From Enoplolaimus lenunculus (taxonomy: Eukaryota): DNA of 64,000 bases. The stretch is taken from the NCBI GenBank assembly GCA_030248215.1, contig JASANG010000627.1, positions 248,001-312,000 on the forward strand, in the 5' to 3' direction. Positions within the stretch are counted from its first letter, which is position 1; every line of letters starts with the position of its first letter. Both the position numbers and the translations under genes were made by a program. This document shows, piece by piece, positions 8,358-64,000 of this stretch. The notes under the pieces were generated by a model. That model made no database searches, was not told the origin of the DNA, and saw only the letters and a program-made list of their open reading frames with translations.

Positions 8358-8543
8358 ATCATGCCCTCTTGCGGAAACGGATACTAAGCAAAATTAATAA
8401 ATTCAATGGTTAGGTACATAGTGATTGACTATTAATTTTAAATTATGGATGAAGGAAAAATTTCAATTTTACGAATTTCATCATGGATGTACTTCGAGAT
8501 CATTAGTAATTCTGGTGTCCTTGTTTTTAGTTCGACCAATTGT

Positions 8544-13500
<4,957 letters not shown>

Positions 13501-45200: not shown

Positions 45201-45313
45201 CAAGGCCATAATTCATTATCTCAAATCCACAACTCGGCAAGATGTGGTGTGGCAAATAATAACCCCAAAATTCTTACCTTAGAATGGCTGACATGACTTG
45301 CTCCTTGACCCAT
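21293..45313 (-). CDS. Large, mostly low-complexity coiled-coil protein, NCKAP5/NCKAP5L-like (19 coding exons, about 2591 aa)
   Basis: Exons 45278-45313, 44734-44905, 43987-44296, 42590-43062, 40981-41622, 40287-40651, 39522-39644, 38588-38758, 36398-36790, 35914-36036, 33404-35511, 31893-32480, 29454-29775, 29204-29281, 28034-28242, 24333-24456, 23889-24072, 23251-23409 and 21293-22488. All introns are GT-AG and phase-compatible, giving 7776 nt open from MGQGAS to TGA. The coiled coil YNQTLDDIATYIVQRLEQQK..LNDENSNLRKRCVKLEWENRLL resembles the NCKAP5 N-terminal coil as I recall it. The structure is well supported; the family name less so. Confidence 0.75.
21685..21722 (-). repeat. (AAT)n microsatellite encoding poly-Asn in the last exon
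   Basis: TTATTA run that translates to NSNNNNNNNHNNN in ORF 21293..22390. Confidence 0.85.
22553..23210 (+). mobile_element. 5'-truncated DINE-1/Helentron-like (HINE) element with central tandem repeats
   Basis: Four related 150-185 bp units (GGGTTTTTGGGTGCGAGGAATCTG...AATTTGCATA), then subTIR GCTTCGCTCAAT and stem-loop GTAGT-CCC-ACTAC. It is the reverse complement of the 36877-38005 element. Confidence 0.7.
25049..26437. mobile_element. Non-autonomous hAT-like element with GAGACC subterminal repeats
   Basis: Termini CAGGGATGGGTGGTCTCGG ... CCGAGACCGCTTATCCCTG, many GAGACC/GGTCTC motifs, and a degenerate 8-bp flank (ATGCACGC / CAGCACGG). Confidence 0.6.
26551..26758. repeat. Two-copy tandem duplication of about 104 bp
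   Basis: CGTAACAAATTTAAATAGA...TTAATTATTATCGTTATAATCGA occurs twice, with several substitutions. Confidence 0.8.
29930..31682 (+). mobile_element. Decayed Merlin (IS1016/ISXO2-like) DNA transposon with roughly 300-bp TIRs
   Basis: The left arm (about 29930-30245) and right arm (about 31385-31682) are imperfect inverted repeats (AAAAATGCCATTCGCATCTCTGCAC / GTGCAGAGATGCGGATGGCATTTTT) enclosing a transposase remnant. Exact ends and TSD were not resolved. Confidence 0.8.
30391..31290 (+). pseudogene. Merlin/ISXO2-like transposase pseudogene with an intron (30511-30748)
   Basis: Motifs DRYVWRCPRC..SVRSASAFENSNL, QWYNRFRD, GGPNVIVQVDE, RKYQCGR..QWVLGI, RDAQALIPII..VLPGTTIWADDLAAY and EFMWRGRFG. 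Has a stop codon and frameshifts, and lacks the segment with the third catalytic acidic residue. Confidence 0.85.
32803..33247. mobile_element. hAT-type MITE (CAGGGTGCAACCGGAA family), diverged copy
   Basis: Reverse-complement relative of 41744-42114. The 8-bp flanks GTGACAAG / GTGATAAG match at 7 of 8 positions. Confidence 0.75.
36877..38005 (-). mobile_element. Full-length DINE-1/Helentron-like (HINE) non-autonomous element
   Basis: Inverted 12-bp subTIRs ATTGAGCGAAGC (36901-36912) / GCTTCGCTCAAT (37992-38003), an extra internal copy near the 5' end, a (GTCC/GTCT)n microsatellite at about 37897-37921 beside AAAATCGGTTCAGCGGTT, central 150-185 bp tandem units, and a terminal stem-loop GTAGT-GAT-ACTAC (36884-36896). 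Confidence 0.75.
39190..39310. repeat. Three-copy minisatellite, unit about 40 bp
   Basis: CTGGAAAT..CTCATTCTCCGCGTGGGCAGGCGC three times, next to CCTAAA/CCTAAG repeats. Confidence 0.7.
39994..40313. repeat. Local duplication (about 120 bp) that includes the exon-6 splice donor
   Basis: AATCAAACTTC..AACCAGAATCAGAATTCTG...TAACTAACCTTTTAATATTTGT.TTTGCACTGTT at 39994-40114 and 40192-40313. Confidence 0.8.
41744..42114. mobile_element. Young hAT-type MITE (371 bp)
   Basis: Perfect 18-bp TIR CAGGGTGCAACCGGAATT / AATTCCGGTTGCACCCTG, perfect 8-bp TSD AATTCAGA, and ACCGGA subterminal repeats. Confidence 0.92.
43444..43816. mobile_element. hAT-type MITE, same family as 41744-42114
   Basis: CATGGTGCAACCGGAAT...AATTCCGGTTGCACCCTG; flanks GCCACTGC / GTCTCTGC match at 6 of 8 positions. 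Confidence 0.75.
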
Positions 45314-46427
45314 TGCCTGCGAATCAGACTTACGAATGAAAGACACCAGCAAAACGTATACAATTACAACTCAGTATGTCAACTTGATCCTAAACTACAT
45401 CTGAAACAGTGAAACTGTAAAAATATACACCTGGCATTATGCCTATAGAGTTGTCGTTTGAAAAACCAGAAAATGAACCAAATTTAAAAATCATAGCTAT
45501 GTACGTACCTATAATATTGTCAAGTATACACCTTCCCATGACCGTTCATTTTCAAATTTTAATACAAAAAGAGGCCAATGTTACCCTAAAGGTTGACCTA
45601 TTTTCCTGGAACAGAAATGTACCAGGACTACACACAACAAATATAATTGGGACAGCCGGACAGTTGAACAGCGGGACAGTTGGACAGCGATCAGGGGTCC
45701 AAAGCAGGATGGGGCCTGTCGCCCCCCAAATGCCCCCACAATAAAGCAATTCATTTATTGGAATCCTTATCTTGCTCAGCTTGAACGTCCTTTTTACTGG
45801 GGGTCAGGAGGTGCTGCAATCCGACGAGAAAAGTAAACACTGTCAGTCCTGCACATTTTCAGCATATATGGGGTCAGGGGATCGGCATCCCCTCTCCCTC
45901 CGAGAAAATGTAACACAACAATAAATATATATTTTTATATACATATTACATATTATCTATAATATATGTATATATTTATATATGGCTGTGCATATATAAA
46001 CAAGAATGCATATGTTTGCACTCCTGGTATATTGCTGTCCCGGGACAATGGGGTGGCTTTTACCGCAACATGGGCCCAAAAAGATATCTAGCTAGCAGCA
46101 TGTACTTCATTAATTCCTTTAACCCATCATAGCCCAGATCAAAACTTTTTACATAGTCCGGAACTGAGCATTTATTTAACCATTCAACCTTTGAATGTCC
46201 TTGTTAATAAAATTGAAATTGCCTTAATAGATAATAAGCCTAAATATTACCGTACAATAAAACATACAATTATCCAACTAATAAATGTCGCTGTTATACT
46301 TTTGTGTACTACACATTTAAAACTTGTGTAGTTTATTAATTAAGCTTTCGGTCTTTTTATTCTAGTTTTAATTACGTCTATTTCAAAAAGAAATAAAAAA
46401 ATTTGACAACAGTTCATATACTGATTG

Positions 46428-49400
46428 TGTAGCGTATGTGTTCTGGCTTAGAATAAAAATAAAATTTTAAAAAATAAAATAGATTCGAAGGATCGAAAAA
46501 AGGTTTTGAAGAAAAAATATTTTTTGATTAATAAATTGTGGTTTTTGACGAGGCAGTTGAATGATATTTGTTTTATTGTATTTACTTAATACTTCGAAAA
46601 GCGCAAATAAACGCAAAGACTAAAGAAGTTACTTCTACATTAAAACGACTACCAAATCTGGTTTGACGATAAATTTCGAAATATAATTCAAATTGACGTA
46701 GTGTTTCACCAAATCCAATCAACTCCAGTTGTCACGGCATTTTACCGAATCACAACGAAACAAACAATTTCCACTGGGTTAAGTCAAACTCGCAGTCACT
46801 GCATTTTGGCGCCCAACATGAGCAACAACACATCAAACCTGTTTGAAAAACGCCGATTTATCAAGATAGAAAAATAATGAAATGGTAAACTAAACCATGA
46901 TATCCCAATGCAACTAGTAATTTTTACTTGAATAATTTTATGTGACCATTTTTTGCTAATCAAAAACTGCAATTAAACAAACTTCTAAGAAATTAAGAAC
47001 TCGTAGTTACGGTAAGCTTTCACGAAAACCAGCCAAAACCATGCTATCCACCACTCATAACTCAAATCAAATTTTGCCAATATTAAGTAACTCTACAGTT
47101 ATTTTAGCAGAACCATTTACTGGCACTGATACAGCCAAAAATATAAAGGTCTGGTTTAGAGATTTTATTCGCGTTGCAAACACTAATAACTGGTCAGCAA
47201 GTAGCCGTAAACAAATTTTGCCAGCTTTGTTAACTTACCGTGCCGGATCATTTTTTGATTCACTAAACCATTACTGAAGTTTTGATGAAATTAAAACTAA
47301 AATGATAGAAAAGTTTACCCCTGAAAGTGGAATGAGTTGGGCAGAACTAAACATTCGATACCAACAATCACACGAAACAATCGACGATTTTGCAGAGGCA
47401 ATCCACAACTTCGTGCAAAAATCTTACCCTATTGCACCAGAACACGAAATGAACGATACAAAGTTAAAAAACTTTGTTTATCGCTAATTGCCGCAGTACC
47501 AGCAAATACTACTTCAAAAAGACATTGCAAAAATGACAATTGACGAAGCTATAACACTTGCAAAATGGCAAGAAAATGCAATAAAGCAAATATGTGTCAC
47601 ACAAAACATGTCACAACAACCGCCAAACACATTCACACATGATAATACTTTGTTAAAAGCAATACAACAATTATGGGTCATCCACGTTATAATGCGCCCG
47701 CTAATGTAAGAATTTGTCCAACCACCCGGTAGGGAGCTGTGTGCAAATCGAAGCTGCAACTAACGTGTAGGTACAATTTTATGCGGTATGCAGACACTAT
47801 TAATTGTCCCTACACTGTCCGAAGGCAGTCGGAACCAAAGATAAAAAATTAAGCATCACAAATAAGTGTATATATGTAATTGTGTTGTTGTTATGCATGT
47901 TTGCGATGCTATATGAACACAGTGCAATATGTCTTTAAGTCCTCGTTAGGGACTACCGGACATTATAGTGGTCTCGTAACAGAGTGTTAAAACGACGTCG
48001 GGCCTTACTTAACCCAACATTTTTTGCAGTAGCGCCTGCAGTATAACGTGGATTTCCATTAACAGAAAAATTAACGCAACCAAACACAGCACAACTCAGC
48101 TACCATAGATCCATTTGAAAAAGATTAAATAAACTTGAGACTGGATTTGAAAGTTACATCGAATCAACTACTCAATAAATACAACTTAATTAGAACACGC
48201 GCAAAACAAACCAAAGACCAAACTACACAAAAACAAATACACTGCTTCATATGCAACCGAACAATCATTTTACAAGCCAATGTCGATCACTTCCCCAAAA
48301 GAGACCATCGCTACTCAAAACATTCAACCATTAATACAAACACAACAATCACAATCAGCTGTACAATCGCAAATTCCACAAATACAGCCCAATTGGTTTA
48401 ACTCACAACAACCATCAGCTAATTTCACAGGTCCAAGGGAAAACTAATCCGGACTCCCTTAGGGGAAAGGCGAGTCCATAAAAACACACATATAAATCCC
48501 TCAAAAGAATGCTTACCAACAAAATCAGTTTTTCACTCAAAAGTATGTTCTACTAGCTGCCATTTATAATGCAAAAATTGGTAAAGACATTTTTGTCGAA
48601 CCTTATGCGATTCTGGTTCTGAAATAAACATAATAAGTGAAAAGTTTTTTCTGTTATTCCCAAAGGAATGATAGCAAAAATTAGGATCCAAGATCACTAA
48701 TCTCTGTTACCGGCAATCATTAAACATAATCGAAGTTATTCAATTCCGCTAACAATAGGGTTATTAGAACAACTAAAATTTTTCGTCGTCCAGAAGCCCA
48801 CCATGATTGCATCATTGGTACACAGTTGTTTCACATGGAAATCTGAATTTTTCAACGTTTCCTACAGTTACATGGTATAAAAATACCATTCATACAGCGG
48901 AATATTGAAAACACACTTGCGTCGTCTGTAACTTTGATAGGACCGTTTGCATACCTCCTCTTCTGAAAAAGTTTGTTGGGCAAAAATTGAGTAAAGCTTA
49001 GATAACTGCGATGTATTATTTTCACCCAGCCAATTTCTACCGTTCTAAAAGCAAGAATCAACTGGAATTTGTTCTTGGAGCACATAGTCTCCCCACGCCA
49101 AGCAAAAATTCCAATCAAATTAATTAATTTGTGTTATGTTCCATAACCCTGCAACCCAATACAATTTTAATCATGCGAAAAGTACACACAATTAAATAAA
49201 AATCTAGCAAGCACTTGCACGCACCCTTCTCAAACAAATGCAAATCAGCAAACACGATTGTACCGAAAGGAGCGCTTCAGCGGATGCCAATATGAATGAG
49301 GAACAGAAAGACACAGCTAGTTACTGCAAGAATATACACATATTTGAATCAGAATACATCCTTTTGACCACACAACTAACAAACATAAATTGACACTGGA

Positions 49401-49725
49401 GCGAATACCTATGAGCAAGTAGCGTACAATATCCCCCTCTCAAAAAGCCATAATGTCTGAACATGTTAATCTATGTTGAATAAAGGTGTTATAGACCATC
49501 AACAGTCCGTGGTCTTCCCAGTTGTTCTTGTTCCAAATGGAAAATTCGTTTTTGTGTCGATTACAAGGTTAAATAAAATTACTAAACGTACACGTATCCA
49601 GTCCCGCGATTGATGATACCTTAGATCACTGGGAAAGAAGCTATTTTTCGACGTTGATATCAGTTCAGATACTGGCATGGTCCCATACACGACTCGAAAA
49701 GAAAAACTGTACATACAAAATTTTG
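46428..49725 (+). mobile_element. Duplicate 5' part of the Gypsy element (LTR 46428-46803, gag, PR, start of RT)
   Basis: Near-identical to 56257-59650, with the same upstream flank; ends at the fold-back. Confidence 0.85.
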
Positions 49726-52700
49726 CTCGAAATCGGGGGTTGAAGTACTGGTGCCGTCGTAGAGCTGTTCAGGCGTGCAAAAGCAGTTGCAATCGGCACC
49801 ATACAAAGCTTACATTTTTACGCGTAGAATTTATTTTGGTTACGTGATTGATGAAAATTTTGTATGTACAGTTTTTCTTTATCGAGTCCGTTATGGGCCC
49901 CAGTTCCTGACTGTATCCAACGTCGAAAATAGCTTCTTTTCCAGTGATTAGGTATATCATCCGCTGGTCGTTCACGTTTAGATTTTATTTACCGTCTTAT
50001 CGCGATTTTTCATTTTTTGGACAAGACAACTGGCCCACCTCTTATGGTTCTATACACCTTTATTCAACAAGATTTAACATGTTCAGCATTATGGCTTTTT
50101 GAGAGGGGGATACTCTGTACGCTACTTGCTTATAGGTATTTCGCTACCAGTGTATTTATGTTCTGTTAGTTGTGTGCGTCCAAGTTTATTTGATTCAAAT
50201 ATTCAGTATATTCTTGCAGTACTTATCATGTTGTCTTTCTGTTCCTCATTCATATTGCATCCGCTGACCTCCTTTCGTCAATCGTGTTTTGCTGATTTGC
50301 ATTTGTTTGGAGGGTCGGTCTTCTGTTTTTATTTAATTGTGTGTACTTTTCATATCCTAATTGTATTGGGTTGCAGGGTTATTGGACATACACAAATTAA
50401 TTAATTTGATTGGATTTTTCTTGGCGTGGTTTGGCCAGACTATGTGCTCCAAGACAAATTCCAGTTGATTCTTGCTTTTAGCGTTGAATTGGCTGTGGTA
50501 AATTCATCGCAGTTATCTAGCTTTACTCAATTTTTGCCCACAAACTTTTTCAGTAAGAGGAGGTATGCAAACGGTTCCTATCAAAGTTACAGACGACGCA
50601 AGTGTGTTTTCAATATTCCGCTGTATGAATGGTATTTTTATACCATGTAACTGTAGGAAACGTTTTGAAAAATTCAGATTTCCATGTGAAACAACTGTGT
50701 TACCAATGATCATCATGGTGGCGTTCTGCGCGAAAAATTTTAGTTGTTTTTCTATAACCCTATTGTTAGCGGATTTGAATAACTTCGATTATGTTTAATT
50801 TGTCCGGTAACAGGATTAGTGATCTTGGATTCTCTTGATTTTTCTCATTCCTTTGGGATAACAGAAAAACTTTTTCACTTATTATGTTTATTTCAGACCA
50901 GATCGCATAGGTTTCGACATGTCTTTACCAATTTTTGCATTATAAATCAGCTTAGTAGCATACTTTTGAGTGAACTGATTTTGTTGGTAACATTCTTTTG
51001 AGGGATTTATATGTGTGTTTTTATCGGACTCGCCTTTCCCCTGGTCCGGATTAGTTTTCCCTTGCCTGTGAAATTAGCTGATGGTTGTTGTGAGTTAAAC
51101 CAATTGGGCTGTATTTGTGGATTTGCGATTGTCAGCTGATTGTGATTGTTGTGTTTGTATTAATGGTTGAATGTTTTGAGTAGCGATGGTTCTCTTTTGG
51201 GGAAGTTCCATTGGCTTGTAAAATGATTGTTTCGGTTGATATGAGCAGTGTATTTGTTTTTGTGTAGTTTGCTAGTTACTTTGGTTTGTTTTGCGCGTTG
51301 TTTTACTAATTAAGTTGTCTATTTTTTATTGAGTAGTTCATCTCGATGTTAACTCTTCATCCAGTCTAGTTTATTTAATCTTTTTCAAATGGATCTATGG
51401 TAGCTGCAGTTGTTGCTGTGTTTGGTTGCGTTAATTTTTCTGTTAATGGAACATCCACGTTTACTCAGGCGCTCTGCAAAATGTCTGGTCTAGTAAGCCG
51501 CGTCGTTTAACACACTCTTTACGCCACTATTGTCCGAGTCCCTCGAGGACTTAAAGACATATTCACTGTGTTCATATCCGCACATGCATACAACAACACA
51601 AATCATATATACACTTATTTGTTATCTTAATTTTTTATCTTTTTTCCGCTCCTTCGGCAGTGTCGGGCAATTAATAGTGTCTCGCCGCAAAAATTCCTCC
51701 GTAGTTGCCCTCGATTTTCACAGTCCCTCCGTGTACAAATTCTTACATTAGCGGGCGCATTATAACGTGGATGACCCATAATTGTTGTATTCTTTTAACA
51801 AAGTATTTCATGTGTGAATGTGTTTGGCGGTTGTTGTGACATGTTTTGTGTGACACATATTTGCTTTATTGCATTTTCTTGCCATTTTGCAAGTGTTATA
51901 GCTTCGTCAATTGTCATTTTTGCAATGTCTTTTTGAAGTAGTATTTGCTGGTACTGCGGCAATTAGCGATAAACAAAGTTTTTTAACTTTGTATCGTTCA
52001 TTTCGTGTTCTGGTGCAATAGGGTAAGATTTTTGCACGAAGTTGTGGATTGCCTCTGCAAAATCGTCGATTGTTTCGTGTGATTGTTGGTATCGAATGTT
52101 TAGTTCTGCCCAACTCATTCCACTTTCAGGGGTAAACTTTTCTATCATTTTAGTTTTAATTTCATCAAAACTTCAGTAATGGTTTAGTGAATCAAAAAAT
52201 GATCCGGCACGGTAAGTTAACAAAGCTGGCAAAATTTGTTTACGGCTACTTGCTGACCAGTTATTAGTGTTTGCAACGCGAATAAAATCTCTAAACCAGA
52301 CCTTTATATTTTTGGCTGTATCAGTGCCAGTAAATGGTTCTGCTAAAATAACTGTAGAGTTACTTAATATTGGCAAAATTTGATTTGAGTTATGAGTGGT
52401 GGATAGCATGGTTTTGGCTGGTTTTCGTGAAAGCTTACCGTAACTACGAGTTCTTAATTTCTTAGAAGTTTGTTTAATTGCAGTTTTTGATTAGCAAAAA
52501 ATGGTCACATAAAATTATTCAAGTAAAAATTACTAGTTGCATTGGGATATCATGGTTTAGTTTACCATTTCATTATTTTTCTATCTTGATAAATCGGCGT
52601 TTTTCAAACAGGTTTGATGTGTTGTTGCTCACGTTGGGCGCCAAAATGCAGTGACTGCGAGTTTGACTTAACCCAGTGGAAATTGTTTGTTTCGTTGTGA

Positions 52701-53022
52701 TTCGGTAAAATGCCGTGACAACTGGAGTTGATTGGATTTGGTGAAACACTACGTCAATTTGAATTATATTTCGAAATTTATCGTCAAACCAGATTTGGTA
52801 GTCGTTTTAATGTAGAAGTAACTTCTTTAGTCTTTGCGTTTATTTGCGCTTTTCGAAGTATTAAGTAAATACAATAAAACAAATATCATTCAACTGCCTC
52901 GTCAAAAACCACAATTTATTAATCAAAAAATATTTTTTCTTCAAAACCTTTTTTCGATCCTTCGAATCTATTTTATTTTTTAAAATTTTATTTTTATTCT
53001 AAGCCAGAACACATACGCTACA
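49726..53022 (-). mobile_element. Inverted duplicate of the 5' part of the Gypsy element (LTR 52647-53022)
   Basis: Reverse complement of about 56257-59790; identical gag fragment ORFs at 52173..52409 and 51963..52148. Confidence 0.85.
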
Positions 53023-55194
53023 CAATCAGTATATGAACTGTTGTCAAATTTTTTTATTTCTTTTTGAAATAGACGTAATTAAAACTAGAATAAAAAGACC
53101 GAAAGCTTAATTAATAAACTACACAAGTTTTAAATGTGTAGTACACAAAAGTATAACAGCGACATTTATTAGTTGGATAATTGTATGTTTTATTGTACGG
53201 TAATATTTAGGCTTATTATCTATTAAGGCAATTTCAATTTTATTAACAAGGACATTCAAAGGTTGAATGGTTAAATAAATGCTCAGTTCCGGACTATGTA
53301 AAAAGTTTTGATCTGGGCTATGATGGGTTAAAGGAATTAATGAAGTACATGCTGCTAGCTAGATATCTTTTTGGGCCCATGTTGCGGTAAAAGCCACCCC
53401 ATTGTCCCGGGACAGCAATATACCAGGAGTGCAAACATATGCATTCTTGTTTATATATGCACAGCCATATATAAATATATACATATATTATAGATAATAT
53501 GTAATATGTATATAAAAATATATATTTATTGTTGTGTTACATTTTCTCGGAGGGAGAGGGGATGCCGATCCCCTGACCCCATATATGCTGAAAATGTGCA
53601 GGACTGACAGTGTTTACTTTTCTCGTCGGATTGCAGCACCTCCTGACCCCCAGTAAAAAGGACGTTCAAGCGGAGCAAGATAAGGATTCCAATAAATGAA
53701 TTGCTTTATTGTGGGGGCATTTGGGGGGCGACAGGCCCCATCCTGCTTTGGACCCCTGATCGCTGTCCAACTGTCCCGCTGTTCAACTGTCCGGCTGTCC
53801 CAATTATATTTGTTGTGTGTAGTCCTGGTACATTTCTGTTCCAGGAAAATAGGTCAACCTTTAGGGTAACATTGGCCTCTTTTTGTATTAAAATTTGAAA
53901 ATGAACGGTCATGGGAAGGTGTATACTTGACAATATTATAGGTACGTACATAGCTATGATTTTTAAATTTGGTTCATTTTCTGGTTTTTCAAACGACAAC
54001 TCTATAGGCATAATGCCAGGTGTATATTTTTACAGTTTCACTGTTTCAGATGTAGTTTAGGATCAAGTTGACATACTGAGTTGTAATTGTATACGTTTTG
54101 CTGGTGTCTTTCATTCGTAATCTGATTCGCAGGCAATGGGTCAAGGAGCAAGTATGTCAGCCATTCTAAGGTAAGAATTTTGGGGTATTATTGCCACACC
54201 ACATCTTGCCGAGTTGTGGATTTGAGATAATGAATTATGGCCTTGTGTCGCCGCTTGTCTTCTTTCTAATAAGTGTACAGTCATACGTAATATGTGGTAT
54301 ATATACACCTTGACTTGACAGTTATGGATAAGAAATTCAGGTGTTCATTTAAACAGCAAAAACTAGAAGATCGTTGCTAGCACATGCATAACTTTACGGT
54401 ATGGTATGACATACTTTAAAATGTGAGTGCTATTTAGAAAATATATATACGAATTTTTCTTTATTCAAAAAATTCAAACTGAAAACGAGCGTTATTGCAC
54501 AGCTTGATAGCTAAATGCCTGCACTCAATATAATTTCAGACGACGTCATCCAAGCATGGTCGCCATTCAACTAGGAGCTTACCTGACAGTGTTCGGTTAA
54601 ATCGTCTTAGAACTGCGAATGCCGCTAACATATCACTTGATTTTGGTTCACTGCCTTCTGCTCAACATCAACGGTTATCGGTGCCAGTTAAGTCAGATAG
54701 CAAGAGCAACGGTTAGATTTTAGATATATTTGACTATCCTTTATTCATCAGCTTCAACTGTTCACGCGAAAATTTCGCCCATTGTTCGAAATATATTAAT
54801 ACGGAAACTGGAAAATTGCTCACTGATTTACAAACAGATATCTTTTTAGTGGAAGTCTCCACTCGGAAATATTTCCCTCCCTCACATGCTGATAATGAGA
54901 TGGGCAAACAAAACACAAGCTAGCAGAGTCGACTAAGGTATACACTTGAGTTAAGGTACAGAATCAAGGTTTTTCAAAGAGCGCGATATACATTTATTTA
55001 CATGTCATGTCCAGTTAGAATCCTCATCGAGTTCCTGTTCCAGTAAAAATTCAATATCCGGTACATATCTAGTAAACAATCTCGGGTCAGTGATGCGCGG
55101 TAATGTACATACGTGATATATAATTTTTTGTTTAGTTGTATGGCGTACGACCTTTTTTAATTCCACGTTTTGCTTTTTTTTTTTTCTTAAAAAG

Positions 55195-55234
<40 letters not shown>

Positions 55235-56256
55235 GTATGTAATTGATTAAATAATTGAAAAGTGAAATGTAAAAATATACACCTGGCATTATGCCTATAG
55301 AGTTGTCGTTTGAAAAACCAGAAAATGAACCAAATTTAAAAATCATAGCTATGTACGTACCTATAATATTGTCAAGTATACACCTTCCCATACCTTCATT
55401 TTCAAATTTTAATACAAAAAGAGGCCAATGTTACTCCTAAAGGTTGACCTATTTCCTGGAACAGAAATGTACAGGACTACACACAACAAATATAATTGGG
55501 ACAGCCGGACAGTTGAACAGCGGGACAGTTGGACAGCGATCAGGGGTCCAAAGCAGGATGGGGCCTCGCCCCATGCCCCCACAATAAAGCAATTCATTTA
55601 TTGGAATCCTTATCTTGCTCCGCTTGACGTCCTTTTTACTGGGGGTCAGGAGGTCTCCAATCCGACGAGAAAATAAACACTGTCAGTCCTGCACATTTTC
55701 AGCATATATGGGGTTAGGGGATCGGCATCCCCTCTCCCTCAAAAAATGTAACACAACAATAAATATATATTTTTATATACATATTACATATTATCTATAA
55801 TATATGTATATATTTATATATGGCTGTGCATATATAAACAAGAATGCATATGTTTGCACTCCTGGTATATTGCTGTCCCGGGACAATGGGTGGCTTTTAC
55901 CGCAACATGGGCCCAAAAAAATCTAGCTAGCACAGTACTTCATTAATTCCTTTAACCCATCATAGCCCAGATCAAAACTTTTTACATAGTCGGAACTAGC
56001 ATTTATTTAACCATTCAACCTTTGAATGTCCTTGTTAATAAAATTGAAATTGCCTTAATAATAATAAGCCTAAATATTACCGTACAATAAAACATACAAT
56101 TATCCAACTAATAAATGTCCTGTTATACTTTTGTGTACTACACATTTAAAACTTGTGTAGTTTATTAATTAAGCTTTCGGTCTTTTTATTCTAGTTTTAA
56201 TTACGTCTATTTCAAAAAGAAATAAAAAAATTTGACAACAGTTCATATACTGATTG

Positions 56257-56632
56257 TGTAGCGTATGTGTTCTGGCTTAGAATAAAAATAAAATTTTAAA
56301 AAATAAAATAGATTCGAAGGATCGAAAAAAGGTTTTGAAGAAAAAATATTTTTTGATTAATAAATTGTGGTTTTTGACGAGGCAGTTGAATGATATTTGT
56401 TTTATTGTATTTACTTAATACTTCGAAAAGCGCAAATAAACGCAAAGACTAAAGAAGTTACTTCTACATTAAAACGACTACCAAATCTGGTTTGACGATA
56501 AATTTCGAAATATAATTCAAATTGACGCAGTGTTTCACCAAATCCAATCAACTCCAGTTGTCACGGCATTTTACCGAATCACAACGAAACAAACAATTTC
56601 CACTGGGTTAAGTCAAACTCGCAGTCACTGCA
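56257..56632 (+). repeat. 5' LTR (376 bp)
   Basis: TGTAGCG...CACTGCA, direct repeat of 62501-62884. Confidence 0.95.
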
Positions 56633-56635
56633 TTT

Positions 56636-56649
56636 TGGCGCCCAACGTG
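56636..56649 (+). promoter_or_regulatory. Primer binding site complementary to the 3' end of tRNA-Lys(CUU)
   Basis: TGGCGCCCAACGTG, 3 nt after the LTR, matches the first 14 nt of the canonical Lys1,2 PBS TGGCGCCCAACGTGGGGC. Confidence 0.88.
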
Positions 56650-56869
56650 AGCAACAACACATCAAACCTGTTTGAAAAACGCCGATTTATCAAGATAGAA
56701 AAATAATGAAATGGTAAACTAAACCATGATATCCCAATGCAACTAGTAATTTTTACTTGAATAATTTTATGTGACCATTTTTTGCTAATCAAAAACTGCA
56801 ATTAAACAAACTTCTAAGAAATTAAGAACTCGTAGTTACGGTAAGCTTTCACGAAAACCAGCCAAAACC

Positions 56870-58304
56870 ATGCTATCCACCACTCATAACTCAAATCAAA
56901 TTTTGCCAATATTAAGTAACTCTACAGTTATTTTAGCAGAACCATTTACTGGCACTGATACAGCCAAAAATATAAAGGTCTGGTTTAGAGATTTTATTCG
57001 CGTTGCAAACACTAATAACTGGTCAGCAAGTAGCCGTAAACAAATTTTGCCAGCTTTGTTAACTTACCGTGCCGGATCATTTTTTGATTCACTAAACCAT
57101 TACTGAAGTTTTGATGAAATTAAAACTAAAATGATAGAAAAGTTTACCCCTGAAAGTGGAATGAGTTGGGCAGAACTAAACATTCGATACCAACAATCAC
57201 ACGAAACAATCGACGATTTTGCAGAGGCAATCCACAACTTCGTGCAAAAATCTTACCCTATTGCACCAGAACACGAAATGAACGATACAAAGTTAAAAAA
57301 CTTTGTTTATCGCTAATTGCCGCAGTACCAGCAAATACTACTTCAAAAAGACATTGCAAAAATGACAATTGACGAAGCTATAACACTTGCAAAATGGCAA
57401 GAAAATGCAATAAAGCAAATATGTGTCACACAAAACATGTCACAACAACCGCCAAACACATTCACACATGATAATACTTTGTTAAAAGCAATACAACAAT
57501 TATGGGTCATCCACGTTATAATGCGCGCGCTAATGTAAAAATTTGTCCAACCACCCGGTAGGGATCTGTGTACAAATCGAGGCTGCAACTACCGTGTAGG
57601 TACAATTTTATGCGGTACGTAGACACTATTAATTGTCCCGACACTGTCCGAAGGCAGTCGGAACAAAAGATAAAAAATTAAGCATAACAAATAAGTGTAT
57701 ATATGTATTTGTGTTGTTGTTATGCATGTTTGCGATGCTATATGAACACAGTGCAATATGTCTTTAAGTCCTCGTTAGGGACTACCGGACATTATAGTGG
57801 TCTCGTAACAGAGTGTGTTAAAACGACGTCGGGCCTTACTTAGACCCAGACATTTTTTGCAGTAGCGCCTGCAGTATAACGTGGATGTTCCATTAACAGA
57901 AAAATTAACGCAACCAAACACAGCAACAACTGCAGCTACCATAGATCCATTTGAAAAAGATTAAATAAACTTGAGACTGGATTTGAAGAGTTAACATCGC
58001 AGATGCAACTACTCAATAAAAAATAGACAACTTAATTAGTAAAACAACGCGCAAAACAAACCAAAGTAACTAGCAAACTACACAAAAACAAATACACTGC
58101 TTCATATGCAACCGAAACAATCATTTTACAAGCCAATGTCGATCACTTCCCCAAAAGAGAACCATCGCTACTCAAAACATTCAACCATTAATACAAACAC
58201 AACAATCACAATCAGCTGTACAATCGCAAATTCCACAAATACAGCCCAATTGGTTTAACTCACAACAACCATCAGCTAATTTCACAGGTCCAAGGGAAAA
58301 CTAA
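56870..58304 (+). pseudogene. gag: gag (stops, frameshifts and a MITE insertion)
   Basis: Capsid-like EPFTGTD..IKVWFRDFIRVANTNNW and QQSHETIDDF; zinc knuckle CFICNRNNHFTSQC at 58098-58139; in-frame stops at 57104 and 57314. Confidence 0.88.
57503..57892. mobile_element. 390-bp MITE with a 3-bp TTA TSD (PIF/Harbinger-type) inserted in gag
   Basis: TIR TGGGTCATCCACGTTATA / TATAACGTGGATGTTCCA with TTA on both sides. Removing it restores the gag reading IQQ-L-TEKLTQP. Confidence 0.85.
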
Positions 58305-58336
58305 TACCGGACTCCCTTAGGGGAAAGGCGAGTCCG
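58294..58336 (+). promoter_or_regulatory. Candidate gag-pol -1 ribosomal frameshift signal
   Basis: Slippery GGGAAAA(C) directly before the gag TAA, a 7-nt spacer, then hairpin CGGACTC-CCTT / AAGG-C-GAGTCCG. Confidence 0.65.
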
Positions 58337-61300
58337 ATAAAAACACACATATAAATCCCTCAAAAGAATGCTTACCAACAAAATCAGTTTTTCACTCAAA
58401 AGTATGTTCTACTAAGCTGCCATTTATAATGCAAAAATTGGTAAAGACATTTTTGTCGAAACCTTATGCGATTCTGGTTCTGAAATAAACATAATAAGTG
58501 AAAAAGTTTTTTCTGTTATTCCCAAAGGAATGATAGCAAAAATTCAAGAGAATCCAAGATCACTAATCTCTGTTACCGGACAATCATTAAACATAATCGA
58601 AGTTATTCAAATTCCGCTAACAATAGGGTTATTAGAAAAACAACTAAAATTTTTCGTCGTCCAGAACGCCCACCATGATTGCATCATTGGTAACACAGTT
58701 GTTTCACATGGAAATCTGAATTTTTCAAAACGTTTCCTACAGTTACATGGTATAAAAATACCATTCATACAGCGGAATATTGAAAACACACTTGCGTCGT
58801 CTGTAACTTTGATAGGAACCGTTTGCATACCTCCTCTTACTGAAAAAGTTTGTTGGGCAAAAATTGAGTAAAGCTTAGATAACTGCGATGTATTATTTTC
58901 ACCACAGCCAATTTCTAACCGTTCTAAAAGCAAGAATCAACTGGAATTTGTTCTTGGAGCACATAGTCTGGCCAAACCACGCCAAGCAAAAATTCCAATC
59001 AAATTAATTAATTTGTGTTATGTTCCAATAACCCTGCAACCCAATACAATTTTAGGATCATGCGAAAAGTACACACAATTAAATAAAAATCTAGCAAGCA
59101 CTTGCACGCACCCTTCTCAAACAAATGCAAATCAGCAAAACACGATTGTACCGAAAGGAGTGCTTCAGCGGATGCCAATATGAATGAGGAACAGAAAGAC
59201 AACATGACTAAGTTACTGCAAGAATATACTGACATATTTGAATCAGAATAACATCCTTTTGGACGCACACAACTAACAGAACATAGAATTGACACTGGTA
59301 GCGAAATACCTATGAAGCAAGTAGCGTACAGAGTATCCCCCTCTCAAAAAGCCATAATGTCTGAACATGTTAAATCTATGTTGAATAAAGGTGTTATAGA
59401 ACCATCAAGCAGTCCGTGGTCTTCGCCAGTTGTTCTTGTTCCAAAAAAATGGAAAAATTCGTTTTTGTGTCGATTACAGACGGTTAAATAAAATTACTAA
59501 ACGTGACACGTATCCAGTCCCGCGGATTGATGATACCTTAGATGCACTGGGAAAAGCAAGCTATTTTTCGACGTTGGATATCAGTTCAGGATACTGGCAT
59601 GGTCCCATACACGGACTCGATAAAGAAAAACTGTACATACAAAATTTTGCATCAATCACGTAACCATTAAATAAATTTACTCACGCGTAAAAATGTAAGC
59701 TTTGTATGGTCTGCCGATTGCCAACGTGCTTTTGCACGCCTGAAACAGCTCTTAACGACGGCACCAGTACTTCAACCACCCGATTTCGCGCAAAATTTTG
59801 AACTTCACACAGATGCTAGTAATTTGGAATCGGCGCTATTTTATCTCAAATCAGTCAAGAAAAAGAACGCGTGATAGCATATGCTAGTAGGCTTCTCACG
59901 CCAGCAGAAGTTAAATATTCCGCAATTGAAAAAGAAGCATTAGCCATGAAATGGGCCATTCAACATTTTAAACCATATTTATACGGTCAGCATTTCATAA
60001 TAAGAACTGATCACAACCCTCTACGTTGGCTTATGTCAATGAAAGGCACAAATTCCCGGTTGACCAGATGGGCTTTAACTCTTCAGGAATATACATTTGA
60101 TATCATCCACCGAAAAGGTAGGGATAATGCAAATGCTGACTGCTTATCGCGACTGATTGATAATAAAGACAGCGAGCATACTCAATCCCATTTAAGTACA
60201 GTTTTGCAGACACTAGATAGCAACAAATTACTAAAATTACAACAGAATCGAGACAAACTATGTAAAAGCATAATTCAAAACATGAATCCAGAAACCCGCA
60301 CAACTGTAATACCGCATGTGCCACAGCACAGGTTCTTATTGATAGATGGCATTCTTGTGAATCGCTCACGACACAAAAATACACTAAAAGCTGTTGCTCC
60401 TGAAACGATGCGACATCAAATTCTCAAGTCGTTTCATGATGACCCTTTGTCTGGGCACTTGGGAACAGCGAAAACTTTAGAAAAAATTCGAAATCGTTAT
60501 TTTTGGCCAAACCTAGAACGAGACATAAAACTCTATTGTCGAAGTTGTGATATCTGTCAGAAACGCAAAGCTATAAATCAAGGCAGAGCCACAATGGAAA
60601 ATATAAAGATCGATTGTGGACCAATGGAAAAACTGGGAATCGACATTTTAGGTCCACTCCCAATAACACAACGAAAAAACCGTTATATAGTAGTGTTTGT
60701 AGATTACTTGACTAAGTGGCCTGAAGCCTTTCCAGTTAGTGAAATATCATCCGAAACCATTGCTCAAAAACTTGTGGAGAAGATTGTATGTCGTTATTCC
60801 TGTCCCAAAACCCTTATATCTGACCAAGCACCTATATTAACATCCGATATAATAAAGCATATGTGCAAACTAATGAAATGCAAAAAACTCAACCTACAGC
60901 ATACCACCCCCAGACCGATGAACTTGTCGAACGATTTAATCGGACATTAACCAATATGCTAGCCTCGTACGTGAGTGAATATGAAAAGCAGTGGGATTTG
61001 TTTATCCCATATGTGCTGTTCGCTTACAGAACAGCTGTCAATTTCTCCACGGGGTATTCTTCTTTTGAAATGCTTTATTACCGTCAGCCCAATCTACCAT
61101 CAGACATAGTGCTAAAATCAACACAACGAATATTTCCAGATACAATAACTTATATGCATAATTTAGGCATGGCCATGAACGACATACAAGCAAAAGCTCG
61201 AGCAAACATTGAGCATGCACAATTAAAACAAAAGCAACAGTATGATCAACATACGTTATCACGTAATTTTATAATTGGGGACGTTGTTTTATTGAAAGTC

Positions 61301-61446
61301 GAGCCAAAAACTACTAAATTTGGTCCCGATTTGATGGCCCACACAGAATCATAAAACAATATACACGTGTAAAATTCAAAATTTTAAGCGACACAGGCAA
61401 AATTAAGATAGTACATGCAAATAAACTAAGACTTTATCACTACTAA
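58300..61446 (+). pseudogene. pol: pol (protease, partial RT, RNase H, integrase), frameshifted with the RT core deleted
   Basis: PR LCDSGSEINII (58464-); RT N-terminal motifs SSPWSSPVVLV, RFCVDYRRLN, YPVPRIDD and LDISSGYW; RH HTDAS..IAYASR..YSAIEKEALA..TDHNPL; IN HDDPLSGH..CRSCDIC, GIDILGP, ISDQ, VERFNRTL and a GPY/F-like FDGPHRI; stop at 61444-61446. Confidence 0.95.
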
Positions 61447-61454
61447 ATCTTTAT

Positions 61455-62343
61455 ATGATTTTAGCGGAACTCCCGAAAAACGCGAACAATCCGACACGAT
61501 ATAATTTAACATTTCAACGCCTGAATTCAAGTTTCTGTCAAATCTATTTTTATGTTCGTTTGTTTTCCTGGGAGAGATATTTCATTCATCAGAACAGGCC
61601 TATCAATTTTGCAAGTCACACATAATTGGTAATAAACAAACAAAACAATCTATTCGACGTGCTTACAGCCCTTTCGAAGCCGTGAAATTGGGCAAACAGT
61701 TTTGTCATACTCAAAACCAAAAACGGAAATGGAACAGAATCAAATATTTTGTGATGGCGAGCGTTGTGTTTGCAGTTGGCGATTCAATAATTCATCGTCT
61801 CAGCCAAAGCCAATTTTTAAGTGAATCCTCATTTAAATTTGTGGGTTGGCCTGGAGCAGGTTTAGATATTGTATTCAATATTTCAGAAATTATTTTTTGC
61901 CCGGAACTCATTTAACGATTCTTGCCGGAACAAACGAACGTACATACAATACTTATGTTCGGCCGGATAAGATTAACAAACTAAATGGAACCTCCAAAAC
62001 TAGATCTGCACGCAAAATAATTACGAAACTGGAATGTAAAATCAAACATTATTTGCGAAATTCAACAGATACGCGTATCACAATTTGCGAAGTGTTACCC
62101 CGATACGATCAAATGTCGCTAAAAGCTGAATTATCAAAAGTCCAAAAAGCTGTGGGAGTTTTTAATGCAGAACTCAAGCTCGCTGTTAGGAAATTCAGAA
62201 ATATGCCGGTTGACTTGCTGACAGCGTTTGATTCGATAAATAAACCCGAATTCTACTTAACTAAAACTAATGCTCTTGATTTGCACCCGAATGAAGACGG
62301 ACTTCTGTGCTTATTTAACATGATCGCACTGGTTTATGATTGA
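61455..62343 (+). pseudogene. Retrotransposon ORF3: partial NADAR/YbiA-like domain fused to an SGNH/GDSL hydrolase (two 1-nt frameshifts)
   Basis: 61505-61775 reads FKFLSNLF..F..GEIFHSSEQAYQFCKS..GNKQTKQSIRRAYSPFEAVKLGK..KWNRIKYFVM, the NADAR N-terminal motifs. SGNH blocks follow: VGDS (61775-61786), WPGA, LAGTNE, ITICEVLPR, FNAEL and DLHPNEDG. Confidence 0.8.
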
Positions 62344-62486
62344 GGTTCCTCGATGGGTGAAAGCAACATTGAGTTGCGGCAAAGCAACCCGCAAAACGGG
62401 AACACAATCGTAGAACATTGCGTACGTGAAATGACTCTATTGGTAATACCACAAGCAGCGTTTTTTAATATAATTTCGAATTTTCT

Positions 62487-62500
62487 AAAAGGGTGAGGAA
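62487..62500 (+). promoter_or_regulatory. Polypurine tract
   Basis: AAAAGGGTGAGGAA abutting the 3' LTR. Confidence 0.85.
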
Positions 62501-62884
62501 TGTAGCGTATGTGTTCTGGCCTAGAATAAAAATAAAATTTTAAAAAATAAAATAGATTCGAAGAATCGAAAAAAAGGTTTTGAAGAAATAAAAAATATTT
62601 TTTGATTAATAAATTGTGGTTTTTGACGAGGCAGTTGAATGATATTCGTTTTATTGTATTTACTTAATACTTCGAAAAGCGCAAATAAACGCAAAGACTA
62701 AAGAAGTTAATTCGACATTTAAACGACTACCAAATCTGGTTTGACGATAAATTTCGAAATATAATTCAAATTGACGCGGTGTTTCACCAAATCCAATCAA
62801 CTCCAGTTGTCACGGCATTTTACCGAATCACAACGAAACAACAAACAATTTCAACTGGGCTAAGACAAACTCGCAGTCACTGCA
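62501..62884 (+). repeat. 3' LTR (384 bp)
   Basis: Direct repeat of the 5' LTR, with about 10 substitutions and 3 small indels by manual comparison. Confidence 0.95.
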
Positions 62885-64000
62885 GATTGTTAAAAGATTA
62901 CCCCCATTATTTTAAGTTATTTGTGCCTGGCAAGCAGAAACTGGTTTGATAAATTTCTATCCTACTCTTCCAACAATATTTCTAAACTAAATTGCGAGGC
63001 GTGCATATATATTCCACTGGCCTTTCAAAATTTTAAAGAAAAATGGCGGACACATCAAAATTTTTAAGATTTTCGATGAATTTTACAACATTTCATTTCG
63101 AACATAATTGCAGCATATGTGACCAAAAATGCAAGATATACGTGATTTATCGCTAAGTTTTGAACGTATAAAAATAACAGAATTTCCGTTATTTCTATAT
63201 TATCGACAACGGAAACTGACTCCGATTTTTGCATAGGAAACAAAAACGGATATTCGGTAATACACCTTGGTGATAGTAGTAAATTTGTTACGAATCTTGA
63301 GCTGCAATTTCATAGTACCAGACAACTTTACAACCGTAGTGATAAATTGAAATTTTAAATTTTAAAATGATTTTTCGATTTCCTATCATTAAAAATTTTA
63401 CTTTTTCAATTTTCCGTCGGGATTTACACAGTATTATTTTCCACAAGGCGGGCGCACGATAAAATGTATGGTGCATAATGCACAACCAAATATCAACGTA
63501 AGCAAAAGTATCTGTATTTTAGCATAAGAATGCAGCCCAATACCCTAATTTTACAACCTAAGGGTACGTTCAAGACGCAAAACTTAGGTTGGGGGATGAG
63601 CTCAACCCGAAATATCTTTGAAATTCGATTATTTATTATATCCTTTTAAAAGAATATATAAACAGAGCAACTTTTTTTACATTACATAACAAGCAGCCTC
63701 TAAAAGCGTCAATAGAGACGGGGTAAAATAAATATAGAGCGACTTCCTTACAATATTCCATACCTTATACATGATATCTCTCGAGCTTTAAACGTCAAAA
63801 TAAACATAGCCAGAAATTCTGCGATTCGCAAAAACAATTTAGCAATTGCAGCCAATCAAGATTAAAACCAGACCGTACCTAAGTGACGCAACTGTAATGC
63901 TTTGTAACTCGAAACTGTCATCGTTTAATTTTCGGAAGGGAGCTACTGTATTAACCTATAAATTTTACGCCGAAATCGTCACATTTGGTTTTGTGAATAA

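What the first reader, a model, noticed from the sequence alone, without database searches (positions are those of the whole stretch)
61455..62343. Gypsy retrotransposon carrying a NADAR-SGNH hydrolase fusion in the env slot
Seen: between the pol stop (61446) and the PPT lies a reading frame of about 295 codons that the ORF track shows only in pieces. Its first part (FLSNLF, SSEQAYQFCK, IRRAYSPFEAVKLGK, WNRIKYFVM) follows the NADAR/YbiA pattern motif by motif (FSNF, TSEHYFQAQK, IRRVSSPMVAARMGR, WESVKEQVM, as I recall E. coli YbiA). It runs in frame into an SGNH hydrolase with Ser (GDS), Gly (PGA), Asn (GTNE) and His (DLHP) blocks. Established: NADAR proteins are N-glycosidases, including enzymes that remove ADP-ribose from guanine in DNA, and they occur in some viruses. 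SGNH/GDSL domains are known cargo of CR1/L2 ORF1 and of some rotifer LTR elements. Inference: I know of no described NADAR-SGNH ORF3 in a nematode Gypsy element. It could be a counter-defence module that reverses host ADP-ribosylation or acylation of element nucleic acid or particles.
Basis: partly seen in the sequence, partly recalled or inferred. Interest (0 to 1): 0.9.

Follow-up and report, generated by a model that had tools for sequence, protein, structure and literature searches.

The report
Broken NADAR-esterase gene in Gypsy retrotransposon
A dead jumping gene in a roundworm-type genome carries, where viral envelope genes usually sit, the broken remains of a two-enzyme gene whose intact relatives likely strip ADP-ribose marks from nucleic acids and cut esters; the fusion is real and was not found in print, but its role in evading host defence is untested.

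Summary
A full-length Gypsy LTR element (56257-62884; LTRs 95% alike, 5-bp target duplication) has a NADAR-like then SGNH-like coding region between the pol stop and the polypurine tract. This copy is dead: gag and pol are broken and RT lacks its YxDD block. Its third gene has an in-frame stop (61502-61504), a frame change (61907-61917), and lacks about 60-75 codons covering the second half of NADAR, including the catalytic Glu. Short-read contigs of one study agree, so the breaks are not assembly errors. A database search found 3 complete 370-402 aa NADAR-SGNH fusions among 42 hits; they keep the NADAR catalytic Glu and Lys and also match the window's unqueried C-terminal piece. Their genomic context could not be seen, so family-wide Gypsy cargo is likely but not shown. 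In print: NADAR in Ectocarpus Gypsy Pol and oyster Tx1 ORF1; GDSL ORF3 in rotifer Vesta. The fused ORF3 was not found in print. This scan's unchecked notes report a NADAR-SGNH gene in a Helitron and NADAR plus esterase in LINEs on other DNA. New variant; counter-defence plausible, untested.

The parts
56252..56256 (+). 5' target-site duplication GATTG
   Evidence: same 5 bases after the 3' LTR
56257..56632 (+). 5' LTR, 376 nt, TG...CA
   Evidence: 95.3% to the 3' LTR (10 mismatches in 376 aligned, 8 gap columns)
56636..56649 (+). primer-binding site; likeness to a tRNA-Lys 3' end is recalled, not tested
   Evidence: sequence directly
56870..58140 (+). gag-like region, broken by stops and frame changes; CCHC zinc knuckle at 58098
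   Evidence: position and CCHC pattern; no Pfam gag hit on the two pieces scanned
58416..61446 (+). pol: protease, RT, RNase H, integrase in Gypsy order, in about nine pieces; RT lacks the YxDD block
   Evidence: Pfam RVT_1, RT_RNaseH, Integrase_H2C2, rve; Ty3 RT best PDB hit E 1.3e-14; no YxDD between 56632 and 62500 in RT position
61459..61464 (+). candidate splice acceptor TTTTAG ahead of ORF3 (inference only)
61487..61771 (+). ORF3, N-terminal half of a NADAR domain; in-frame stop at 61502-61504; keeps Glu (61592) and Lys (61613) equivalent to 8BAU E43 and K50
61766..61777 (+). junction where about 60-75 codons (second half of NADAR and linker) are missing, in frame
   Evidence: bridged without gaps by short-read contigs of one sample
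61775..61906 (+). ORF3, SGNH blocks I (GDS, Ser at 61784) and II (WPG, Gly at 61853)
61907..61917 (+). frame change inside the SGNH domain
   Evidence: tblastn frames; present in contigs of all 3 runs
61918..62343 (+). ORF3, SGNH blocks III (GTNE, Asn at 61933) and V (DLHP, His at 62284), stop at 62341-62343
   Evidence: hhalign probability 98.2 to relatives; blastp to P0008 E 6.6e-14
62487..62500 (+). polypurine tract
   Evidence: sequence directly
62501..62884 (+). 3' LTR, 384 nt, TG...CA
62885..62889 (+). 3' target-site duplication GATTG

Best explanation
This is a dead Gypsy retrotransposon whose third gene is the decayed remnant of a NADAR-SGNH fusion, which in working elements likely acted as a cytoplasmic accessory enzyme that would remove ADP-ribose from the element's RNA or cDNA. 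Shown: the element, the position of the gene, its homology over its whole length to intact 370-402 aa fusions, and the lesions. Inferred: (a) the intact ancestor had both full domains (about 0.9); (b) it was regular cargo of this Gypsy lineage, made as a separate ORF3, perhaps from a spliced message (about 0.7); (c) its NADAR hydrolyses base-linked ADP-ribose, as YbiA-type NADARs do (about 0.6); (d) the purpose is to undo a host ADP-ribosylation mark, with the SGNH domain removing an acyl group or tethering the particle to membranes (about 0.4). The copy in the window makes no active NADAR.
For: Element anatomy. 3 of 42 hits are complete compact fusions (P0005, P0008, P0028), 2 more stop at or soon after SGNH block I (P0002, P0018; by eye), found with a query that lacked the C-terminal piece; that piece matches P0008, P0005, P0028 at E 6.6e-14, 1.5e-6, 1.8e-4. 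E43, K50, E125, W133 equivalents are invariant in 5 of 5 relatives and D130 in 4 of 5 despite 27-32% identity (residue roles from PMC11543638 passages). Models: P0002 folds like 8BAU and YbiA (TM 0.79, 0.74); the P0008 C-domain like SGNH esterases (Z 14.6, rmsd 3.4, 176 aligned). S, G, N and H blocks are kept in the window and in 3 of 3 complete relatives. ORF3 is intronless, fills the slot from pol stop to 3' region, and has pol-like base make-up. No transmembrane stretch or furin site. NADARs occur in animal RNA viruses, mostly exclusive of macrodomains, argued to counter host ADP-ribosylation (PMC9503650 passages).
Against: The DNA around the intact relatives was not seen, so none is shown to lie in a Gypsy element. 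No second ORF3 copy in the window, no genome to search, no dN/dS. The six compact rows form one side of a branch only at 60/84 support, unstarred, with ungrouped rows possibly inside. A tested NADAR did not remove the N1-guanine ADP-ribose made by human PARP15 (bioRxiv 10.64898/2026.03.31.715305 passages), so the matching host writer is unknown. The family has Asp two residues before the catalytic His (DxH), not the usual DxxH. The P0008 model is only moderate (pLDDT 62.5).
Confidence: 0.5

Rival explanations
1. The fusion is real Gypsy cargo but serves replication housekeeping, not counter-defence: NADAR clears ADP-ribose by-products or binds RNA during particle assembly, and the SGNH domain works in RNP assembly or membrane targeting, or binds RNA as the SGNH-fold OSK domain of Oskar is recalled to do.
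For: PMC12477816 proposes RNA-intermediate processing for TE NADARs. PMC5408684 proposes auxiliary RNP or membrane roles for GDSL ORF3s. Nematode SNA-3 uses NADAR domains in trans-splicing (PMC9303266). OSK is among the fold matches (Z 12.5, rank 17).
Against: Full catalytic sets are kept in both domains of the relatives, which argues against pure binding. Most Gypsy elements replicate without such a gene (established knowledge).
Confidence: 0.22
2. One-off passive capture: this Gypsy lineage picked up a NADAR-SGNH message from another mobile element or the host, and it never helped the element.
For: No Gypsy context shown for any relative; single copy in the window; an unchecked scan note places a NADAR-SGNH gene in a Helitron; intragenomic variation of rotifer ORF3s was neutral (PMC5408684).
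Against: The gene spans start region to stop of the relatives' layout, in sense orientation, with no introns and pol-like composition. Its NADAR does not group with the multi-NADAR proteins among the hits. Other contigs of the same runs match the pol end and the last ORF3 bases but fall under 80% between them, as diverged siblings would.
Confidence: 0.17
3. The SGNH domain stands in for an envelope protein, acting as a lipase for exit from or entry into cells; NADAR is a passenger.
For: Env position; proposed as possible for rotifer GDSL ORF3s (PMC5408684).
Against: No transmembrane segment or furin site in the window pieces or 3 relatives; top fold matches are small-acyl esterases; NADAR catalytic residues are conserved.
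Confidence: 0.06
4. The half NADAR is a selected, remodelled module (a non-catalytic ADP-ribose or RNA binder fused to the esterase) that predates the decay of this copy.
For: The loss is in frame and lands close to the SGNH start. Unchecked scan notes describe LINE NADARs that lost a catalytic residue yet are conserved.
Against: The loss removes core helices and the binding-site Trp and Asp. The lethal RT loss in the same copy also leaves both sides in one reading piece, so being in frame shows no selection. 0 of the 5 compact relatives share the loss.
Confidence: 0.05

Closest known systems
YbiA-family NADAR in Pol of one Gypsy lineage of Ectocarpus, and in ORF1 of Crassostrea gigas Tx1 LINEs (PMC12477816; passages seen; supplements not read)
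   Same: A YbiA-type NADAR carried by a retrotransposon, including Gypsy.
   Different: There it sits at the N-terminus of Pol or in ORF1, and the main text has no SGNH, esterase, GDSL or ORF3. Here it is downstream of pol, fused to an SGNH domain, in an animal.
GDSL/SGNH ORF3 of bdelloid rotifer Vesta LTR retrotransposons (PMC5408684; parts 1-3 of 5 read)
   Same: An SGNH hydrolase with S, G, N, H blocks in the env position of an LTR element; a two-enzyme ORF3 (DEDDy plus GDSL) is also reported there.
   Different: The partner is a DEDDy exonuclease or none, not NADAR; those elements have dUTPase. Sequence kinship of the SGNH domains was not tested.
Phytophthora NADAR (PDB 8BAU) and E. coli YbiA (PDB 2B3W); PMC11543638 passages, PMC12945103 abstract
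   Same: Fold and catalytic residues in the intact relatives (profile E 1.9e-20 and 2.4e-23; TM 0.79 and 0.74).
   Different: Single-domain cellular enzymes; the window copy has only the first half of the domain.
texim SGNH genes associated with fish Helitrons (PMC4021074; passages seen)
   Same: SGNH hydrolase mobilised by a transposon in animals.
   Different: Intron-containing, Helitron-linked; the text has no DUF1768 or YbiA.
NADAR domains of animal RNA viruses, including nematode nidoviruses (PMC9503650; passages seen)
   Same: NADAR on a selfish RNA replicon, proposed to counter host ADP-ribosylation.
   Different: Embedded in replicase polyproteins; the text has no retrotransposon, SGNH or esterase.

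Membership tests
Ty3/Gypsy LTR retrotransposon | Paired LTRs with TG...CA ends and a short target-site duplication | tested here: met
   376/384 nt, 95.3%, GATTG on both sides
Ty3/Gypsy LTR retrotransposon | pol order protease-RT-RNase H-integrase, RT related to Ty3 | tested here: met
Ty3/Gypsy LTR retrotransposon | PBS after the 5' LTR and PPT before the 3' LTR | tested here: met
   56636-56649 and 62487-62500; the tRNA-Lys label is recalled
Autonomous (active) Gypsy element | Open gag and pol with RT YxDD | tested here: not met
   pol in about nine pieces, no YxDD
NADAR (PF08719), window copy | Whole-domain profile match at the curated cut-off | tested here: not met
   32.6 bits against 35.1; profile 9-98 of 163. 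It is a fragment.
NADAR (PF08719), window copy | Catalytic and binding residues (8BAU E43, K50, W89, E125, D130, W133) | tested here: not met
   E43, K50, W89 kept, R79 and R93 as Lys; E125, D130, W133 lie in the missing part
NADAR (PF08719), intact relatives | Whole-domain match, residues and fold | tested here: met
   82-99 bits for P0002, P0005, P0008, P0018, P0028; residues; fold of P0002
NADAR (PF08719), intact relatives | N-glycosidase activity on ADP-ribosylated bases | not testable with these tools
   needs an assay
SGNH hydrolase | Ser, Gly, Asn, His in four ordered blocks | tested here: met
   GDS, WPG, GTNE, DLHP in the window, split over two frames; kept in 3 of 3 complete relatives
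SGNH hydrolase | Profile match at the curated cut-off | tested here: inconclusive
   Lipase_GDSL_2 E 0.085 (window piece), E 2.2e-6 and 28.7 bits against 32.9 (P0008); none at 0.01 for P0005, P0028
SGNH hydrolase | SGNH alpha/beta fold | tested here: met
   For relative P0008: Z 14.6 to 7PZG, rmsd 3.4, 176 aligned; all 50 listed rows fall on this domain. The window copy itself was not folded.
SGNH hydrolase | Asp three residues before the catalytic His (DxxH; recalled norm) | tested here: inconclusive
   DxH in the window and 3 of 3 relatives; geometry not measured
Errantivirus-type env ORF3 | Transmembrane anchor, furin site, fusogen homology | tested here: not met
   No RxK/RR site; top 19-residue hydropathy 0.85-1.59; no fusogen hit
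Ectocarpus NADAR-Pol Gypsy lineage | NADAR at the N-terminus of Pol | tested here: not met
   NADAR lies after the pol stop; no other profile hit in the window
Rotifer Vesta GDSL-ORF3 elements | Sequence kinship of RT and GDSL with Vesta | not tested
   no Vesta sequences were available through the tools

The most novel reading that the evidence does not exclude
A two-enzyme cassette, an ADP-ribose eraser joined to an acyl esterase, is traded among Gypsy elements and other invertebrate transposons because animal hosts restrict transposons by ADP-ribosylating (and perhaps acylating) their nucleic acid; this ORF3 is the LTR-element version of the counter-measure, taking the place of env.
Probability: 0.25. 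Interest if true: 0.85.

Novelty: new variant of a known kind. Interest (0 to 1): 0.52.

Why it matters
Enzymatic cargo on a selfish element points at the host barrier it meets. NADARs erase base-linked ADP-ribose, and RNA viruses of invertebrates carry them, but no ADP-ribosylation defence against retrotransposons turned up in my searches. The intact natural fusions found here (P0005, P0008, P0028) are small, single-ORF proteins that can be assayed directly, which makes that question testable. The repeated joining of NADAR to SGNH (two architectures among 42 hits, on different branches) hints at a shared substrate. The copy in this window is itself only a fossil.

Tried and rejected
Context for the relatives was sought and not obtained. 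Viral contigs: the fusion profile gave 15 loci, all matching the NADAR part only, and 0 of 15 with a hit to the SGNH profile; the pol piece and the SGNH profile gave none. Metagenome contigs: 1 locus of 164 candidates, a bacterial-type GDSL next to an ABC transporter, rejected. Prokaryote genomes: none of 74 candidates. These collections hold little animal DNA, so the blanks say little. Word-index protein searches: none among longer proteins for the NADAR piece, only the 3 query proteins at similar length, none at 705-2010 aa (weak evidence against a Pol-fused form). No whole genome is held. The ESM Atlas did not complete. No RNA holder listed. Rfam: 0 hits over the element. 3 of the 42 protein hits (P0004, P0013, P0015) have no NADAR and were treated as noise and left out of the tree. 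Rejected: assembly error as the cause of the ORF3 breaks; env identity; the ATG at 61455 as the start, since homology continues upstream of the stop in another frame. Literature searches: NADAR+retrotransposon, 10 papers, 1 relevant (one false hit checked); NADAR+SGNH, 1 paper, unrelated by title and abstract start; SGNH+LTR retrotransposon+gypsy, 7 papers; NADAR+YbiA+transposable element, 2 listed; DUF1768+transposon, 2, unrelated by title; nematode/LTR/additional ORF/gypsy/esterase; NADAR+nematode. PMC13524379 and PMC8557442 (passage searches) added nothing on this cargo. Repbase and GyDB could not be searched.

Full report
The element. The finding lies inside a complete LTR element at 56257-62884 on the + strand. 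The LTRs are 376 and 384 nt, both TG...CA, with 10 mismatches in 376 aligned bases and 8 gap columns (95.3%), and GATTG flanks both ends. A primer-binding site follows the 5' LTR and a purine tract (62487-62500) precedes the 3' LTR. Pfam finds RVT_1, RT_RNaseH, Integrase_H2C2 and rve in Gypsy order, with a weak protease hit ahead; the best PDB match of the RT piece is Ty3 (E 1.3e-14). A Col_cuticle_N domain at 13258-13515 supports a nematode host. The copy is dead: pol reads in about nine pieces (by eye), and RT jumps from the motif-A region to beyond the palm, with no YxDD.

The third gene. Piece 61505-61912 hits NADAR at E 1.2e-7 but covers only profile positions 9-98 of 163; piece 61837-62340 hits Lipase_GDSL_2 at E 0.085. 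A search of 1.84 billion representatives with 61505-61867 gave 42 hits, 39 of which carry NADAR. Three are compact, complete fusions of NADAR and SGNH (P0005 402 aa, P0008 378 aa, P0028 370 aa). Two more end at or soon after the SGNH block I, judged by eye (P0002, P0018). Two others (P0007, P0017) have NADAR and SGNH far apart in a longer protein. The window's last piece was not in the query, yet it matches P0008, P0005 and P0028 at E 6.6e-14, 1.5e-6 and 1.8e-4 (hhalign 98.2). A profile of the three scores the two window pieces at E 3.3e-26 and 5.5e-18, the next of 2108 pieces at 2.3. So ORF3 is homologous to this fusion family from end to end.

Where it is broken. tblastn of P0002, P0008 and P0028 runs in one frame from 61487-61493 through 61502-61504, so that break is an in-frame stop; the frame changes between 61906 and 61918. 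Between MASVVF and AVGDS the window lacks what the relatives have: 9 residues from VM to block I here, 68-85 in 5 relatives. Mapped on 8BAU (offset of 2 in the chain file; roles from PMC11543638 passages), the window keeps E43, K50, G78 and W89, has Lys for R79 and R93, and has lost E125, D130 and W133. The equivalent of E125 is needed for hydrolysis in that paper. No in-frame ATG survives between the pol stop and the NADAR start. Short-read contigs agree with the window: an 818-nt contig spans 61611-62428 with 1 other letter and no gap in X1 and X2 (one sample), a 648-nt contig spans 61781-62428 in X3, and X3's contig over 61271-61598 differs only at 61499. All 3 runs are one study and may include the source, so this checks the assembly, not the spread. 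Other contigs match the pol end and 62326-62428 but run on unlike the window in between at the 80% threshold, which suggests related elements whose ORF3 slot I could not see.

The relatives look like working enzymes. E43, K50, E125 and W133 equivalents are invariant in 5 of 5 and D130 in 4 of 5, at 27-32% identity to P0008. The profile matches YbiA at E 2.4e-23 and 8BAU at 1.9e-20. The P0002 model (pLDDT 92.4) matches only these two at E under 0.001 (TM 0.79 and 0.74). The P0008 model (pLDDT 62.5) matches SGNH esterases over residues about 160-350 (Z 14.6 to sialic acid esterase 7PZG). The family has DxH rather than the recalled DxxH before the His. None has a transmembrane stretch or furin site. 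All five start with Met just before NADAR, which fits a separate ORF3, though gene callers choose starts. On a 46-row NADAR tree the window and the five compact relatives form one side of a branch at 60/84, unstarred; 0 of 500 shuffles were as clustered, the AU test does not reject it (p 0.448), ungrouped rows such as the stand-alone NADARs P0014 and P0031 may lie inside, and the hits were chosen by the window query. P0007 and P0017 fall across a starred branch (98/97), so NADAR and SGNH may have been joined twice.

What is not shown. Each relative is a single sequence on a 0.8-8.5 kb ENA or Logan contig; I could not read those contigs, and scans of viral, metagenome and prokaryote collections gave no element. 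So no second Gypsy copy with this gene has been seen, and selection was not measured. For regular cargo speak the sense orientation, the lack of introns, the fit to the slot, and base make-up like pol (GC 0.36-0.38 against 0.38, a host ORF 0.46).

Mechanism. NADARs hydrolyse ADP-ribose from guanine (PMC11543638, PMC11125620 passages) and, for some animal and YbiA-type members, from cytidine (PMC12945103 abstract). In animal RNA viruses, including nematode nidoviruses, they largely replace macrodomains and are argued to counter host ADP-ribosylation (PMC9503650 passages). I therefore commit to an accessory eraser acting on the element's RNA or cDNA, with the esterase acting on an acyl group or on membranes. 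Against it: a NADAR did not remove the N1-guanine mark made by human PARP15 (bioRxiv 10.64898/2026.03.31.715305 passages), no matching host writer is identified, and nematodes use NADAR domains in RNA processing (SNA-3, PMC9303266 passages).

Comparison. NADAR is described in Gypsy Pol of Ectocarpus and in oyster Tx1 ORF1 (PMC12477816 passages; its supplementary figure S2 and table S1 were not read and may bear on novelty). SGNH ORF3s, one fused to a DEDDy exonuclease, are described in rotifer Vesta elements (PMC5408684, parts 1-3 of 5). SGNH genes ride on fish Helitrons (PMC4021074 passages). A NADAR-SGNH fusion, or one in an LTR ORF3, did not appear in my searches; Repbase and GyDB were out of reach. 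Earlier notes of this scan, unchecked by me, report NADAR-SGNH in a Helitron, NADAR plus a separate esterase in LINEs, NADAR in an animal Gypsy Pol and SGNH in Gypsy elements; none matched this DNA or P0008/P0028 by sequence.

Verdict. A real feature and a new arrangement of known parts: it works like known enzymatic ORF3 cargo, the window copy is a fragment and not a NADAR enzyme, and the intact family is an untested but assayable candidate for transposon counter-defence. Interest 0.52.

Noticed in passing
window 44282-57500: The element's 5' part and its host flank recur as direct and inverted blocks at 92-99% identity (partial copies 46428-49726 + and 53022-49716 -, neither with ORF3). Because flanks are included, this looks like fold-back amplification or assembly chimeras, not new insertions.
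   Followed up: partly
window 8438-13515 (-): Nematode cuticle collagen gene in several exons (Col_cuticle_N and Collagen hits).
   Followed up: partly
proteins P0007 (577 aa) and P0017 (647 aa): A second architecture: unknown N-terminal domain, NADAR, proline-rich linker, SGNH with DxxH; separate branch from the compact fusion. Origin unknown.
   Followed up: partly
proteins P0014 and P0031: Stand-alone NADARs close to the fusion family (P0014 is the window's highest-identity row, 40% over 81 columns), on contigs of up to 11.1 kb and 6.6 kb; could be a form without SGNH.
   Followed up: no
window 62278-62286: DxH in place of DxxH at the SGNH catalytic His, shared by all three complete relatives.
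   Followed up: partly
window 62344-62496 (+): A 50-codon open stretch follows the ORF3 stop in the same frame, and other contigs match parts of 62326-62480, suggesting a conserved 3' region among related elements.
   Followed up: no
proteins P0023, P0039/P0046: NADAR at the end of proteins that look like LINE ORF1s by eye, as described for oyster Tx1.
   Followed up: no
window 33400-35511 (-) and 21293-22528 (-): Long single exons (703 and 411 codons); the first has no Pfam hit.
   Followed up: no
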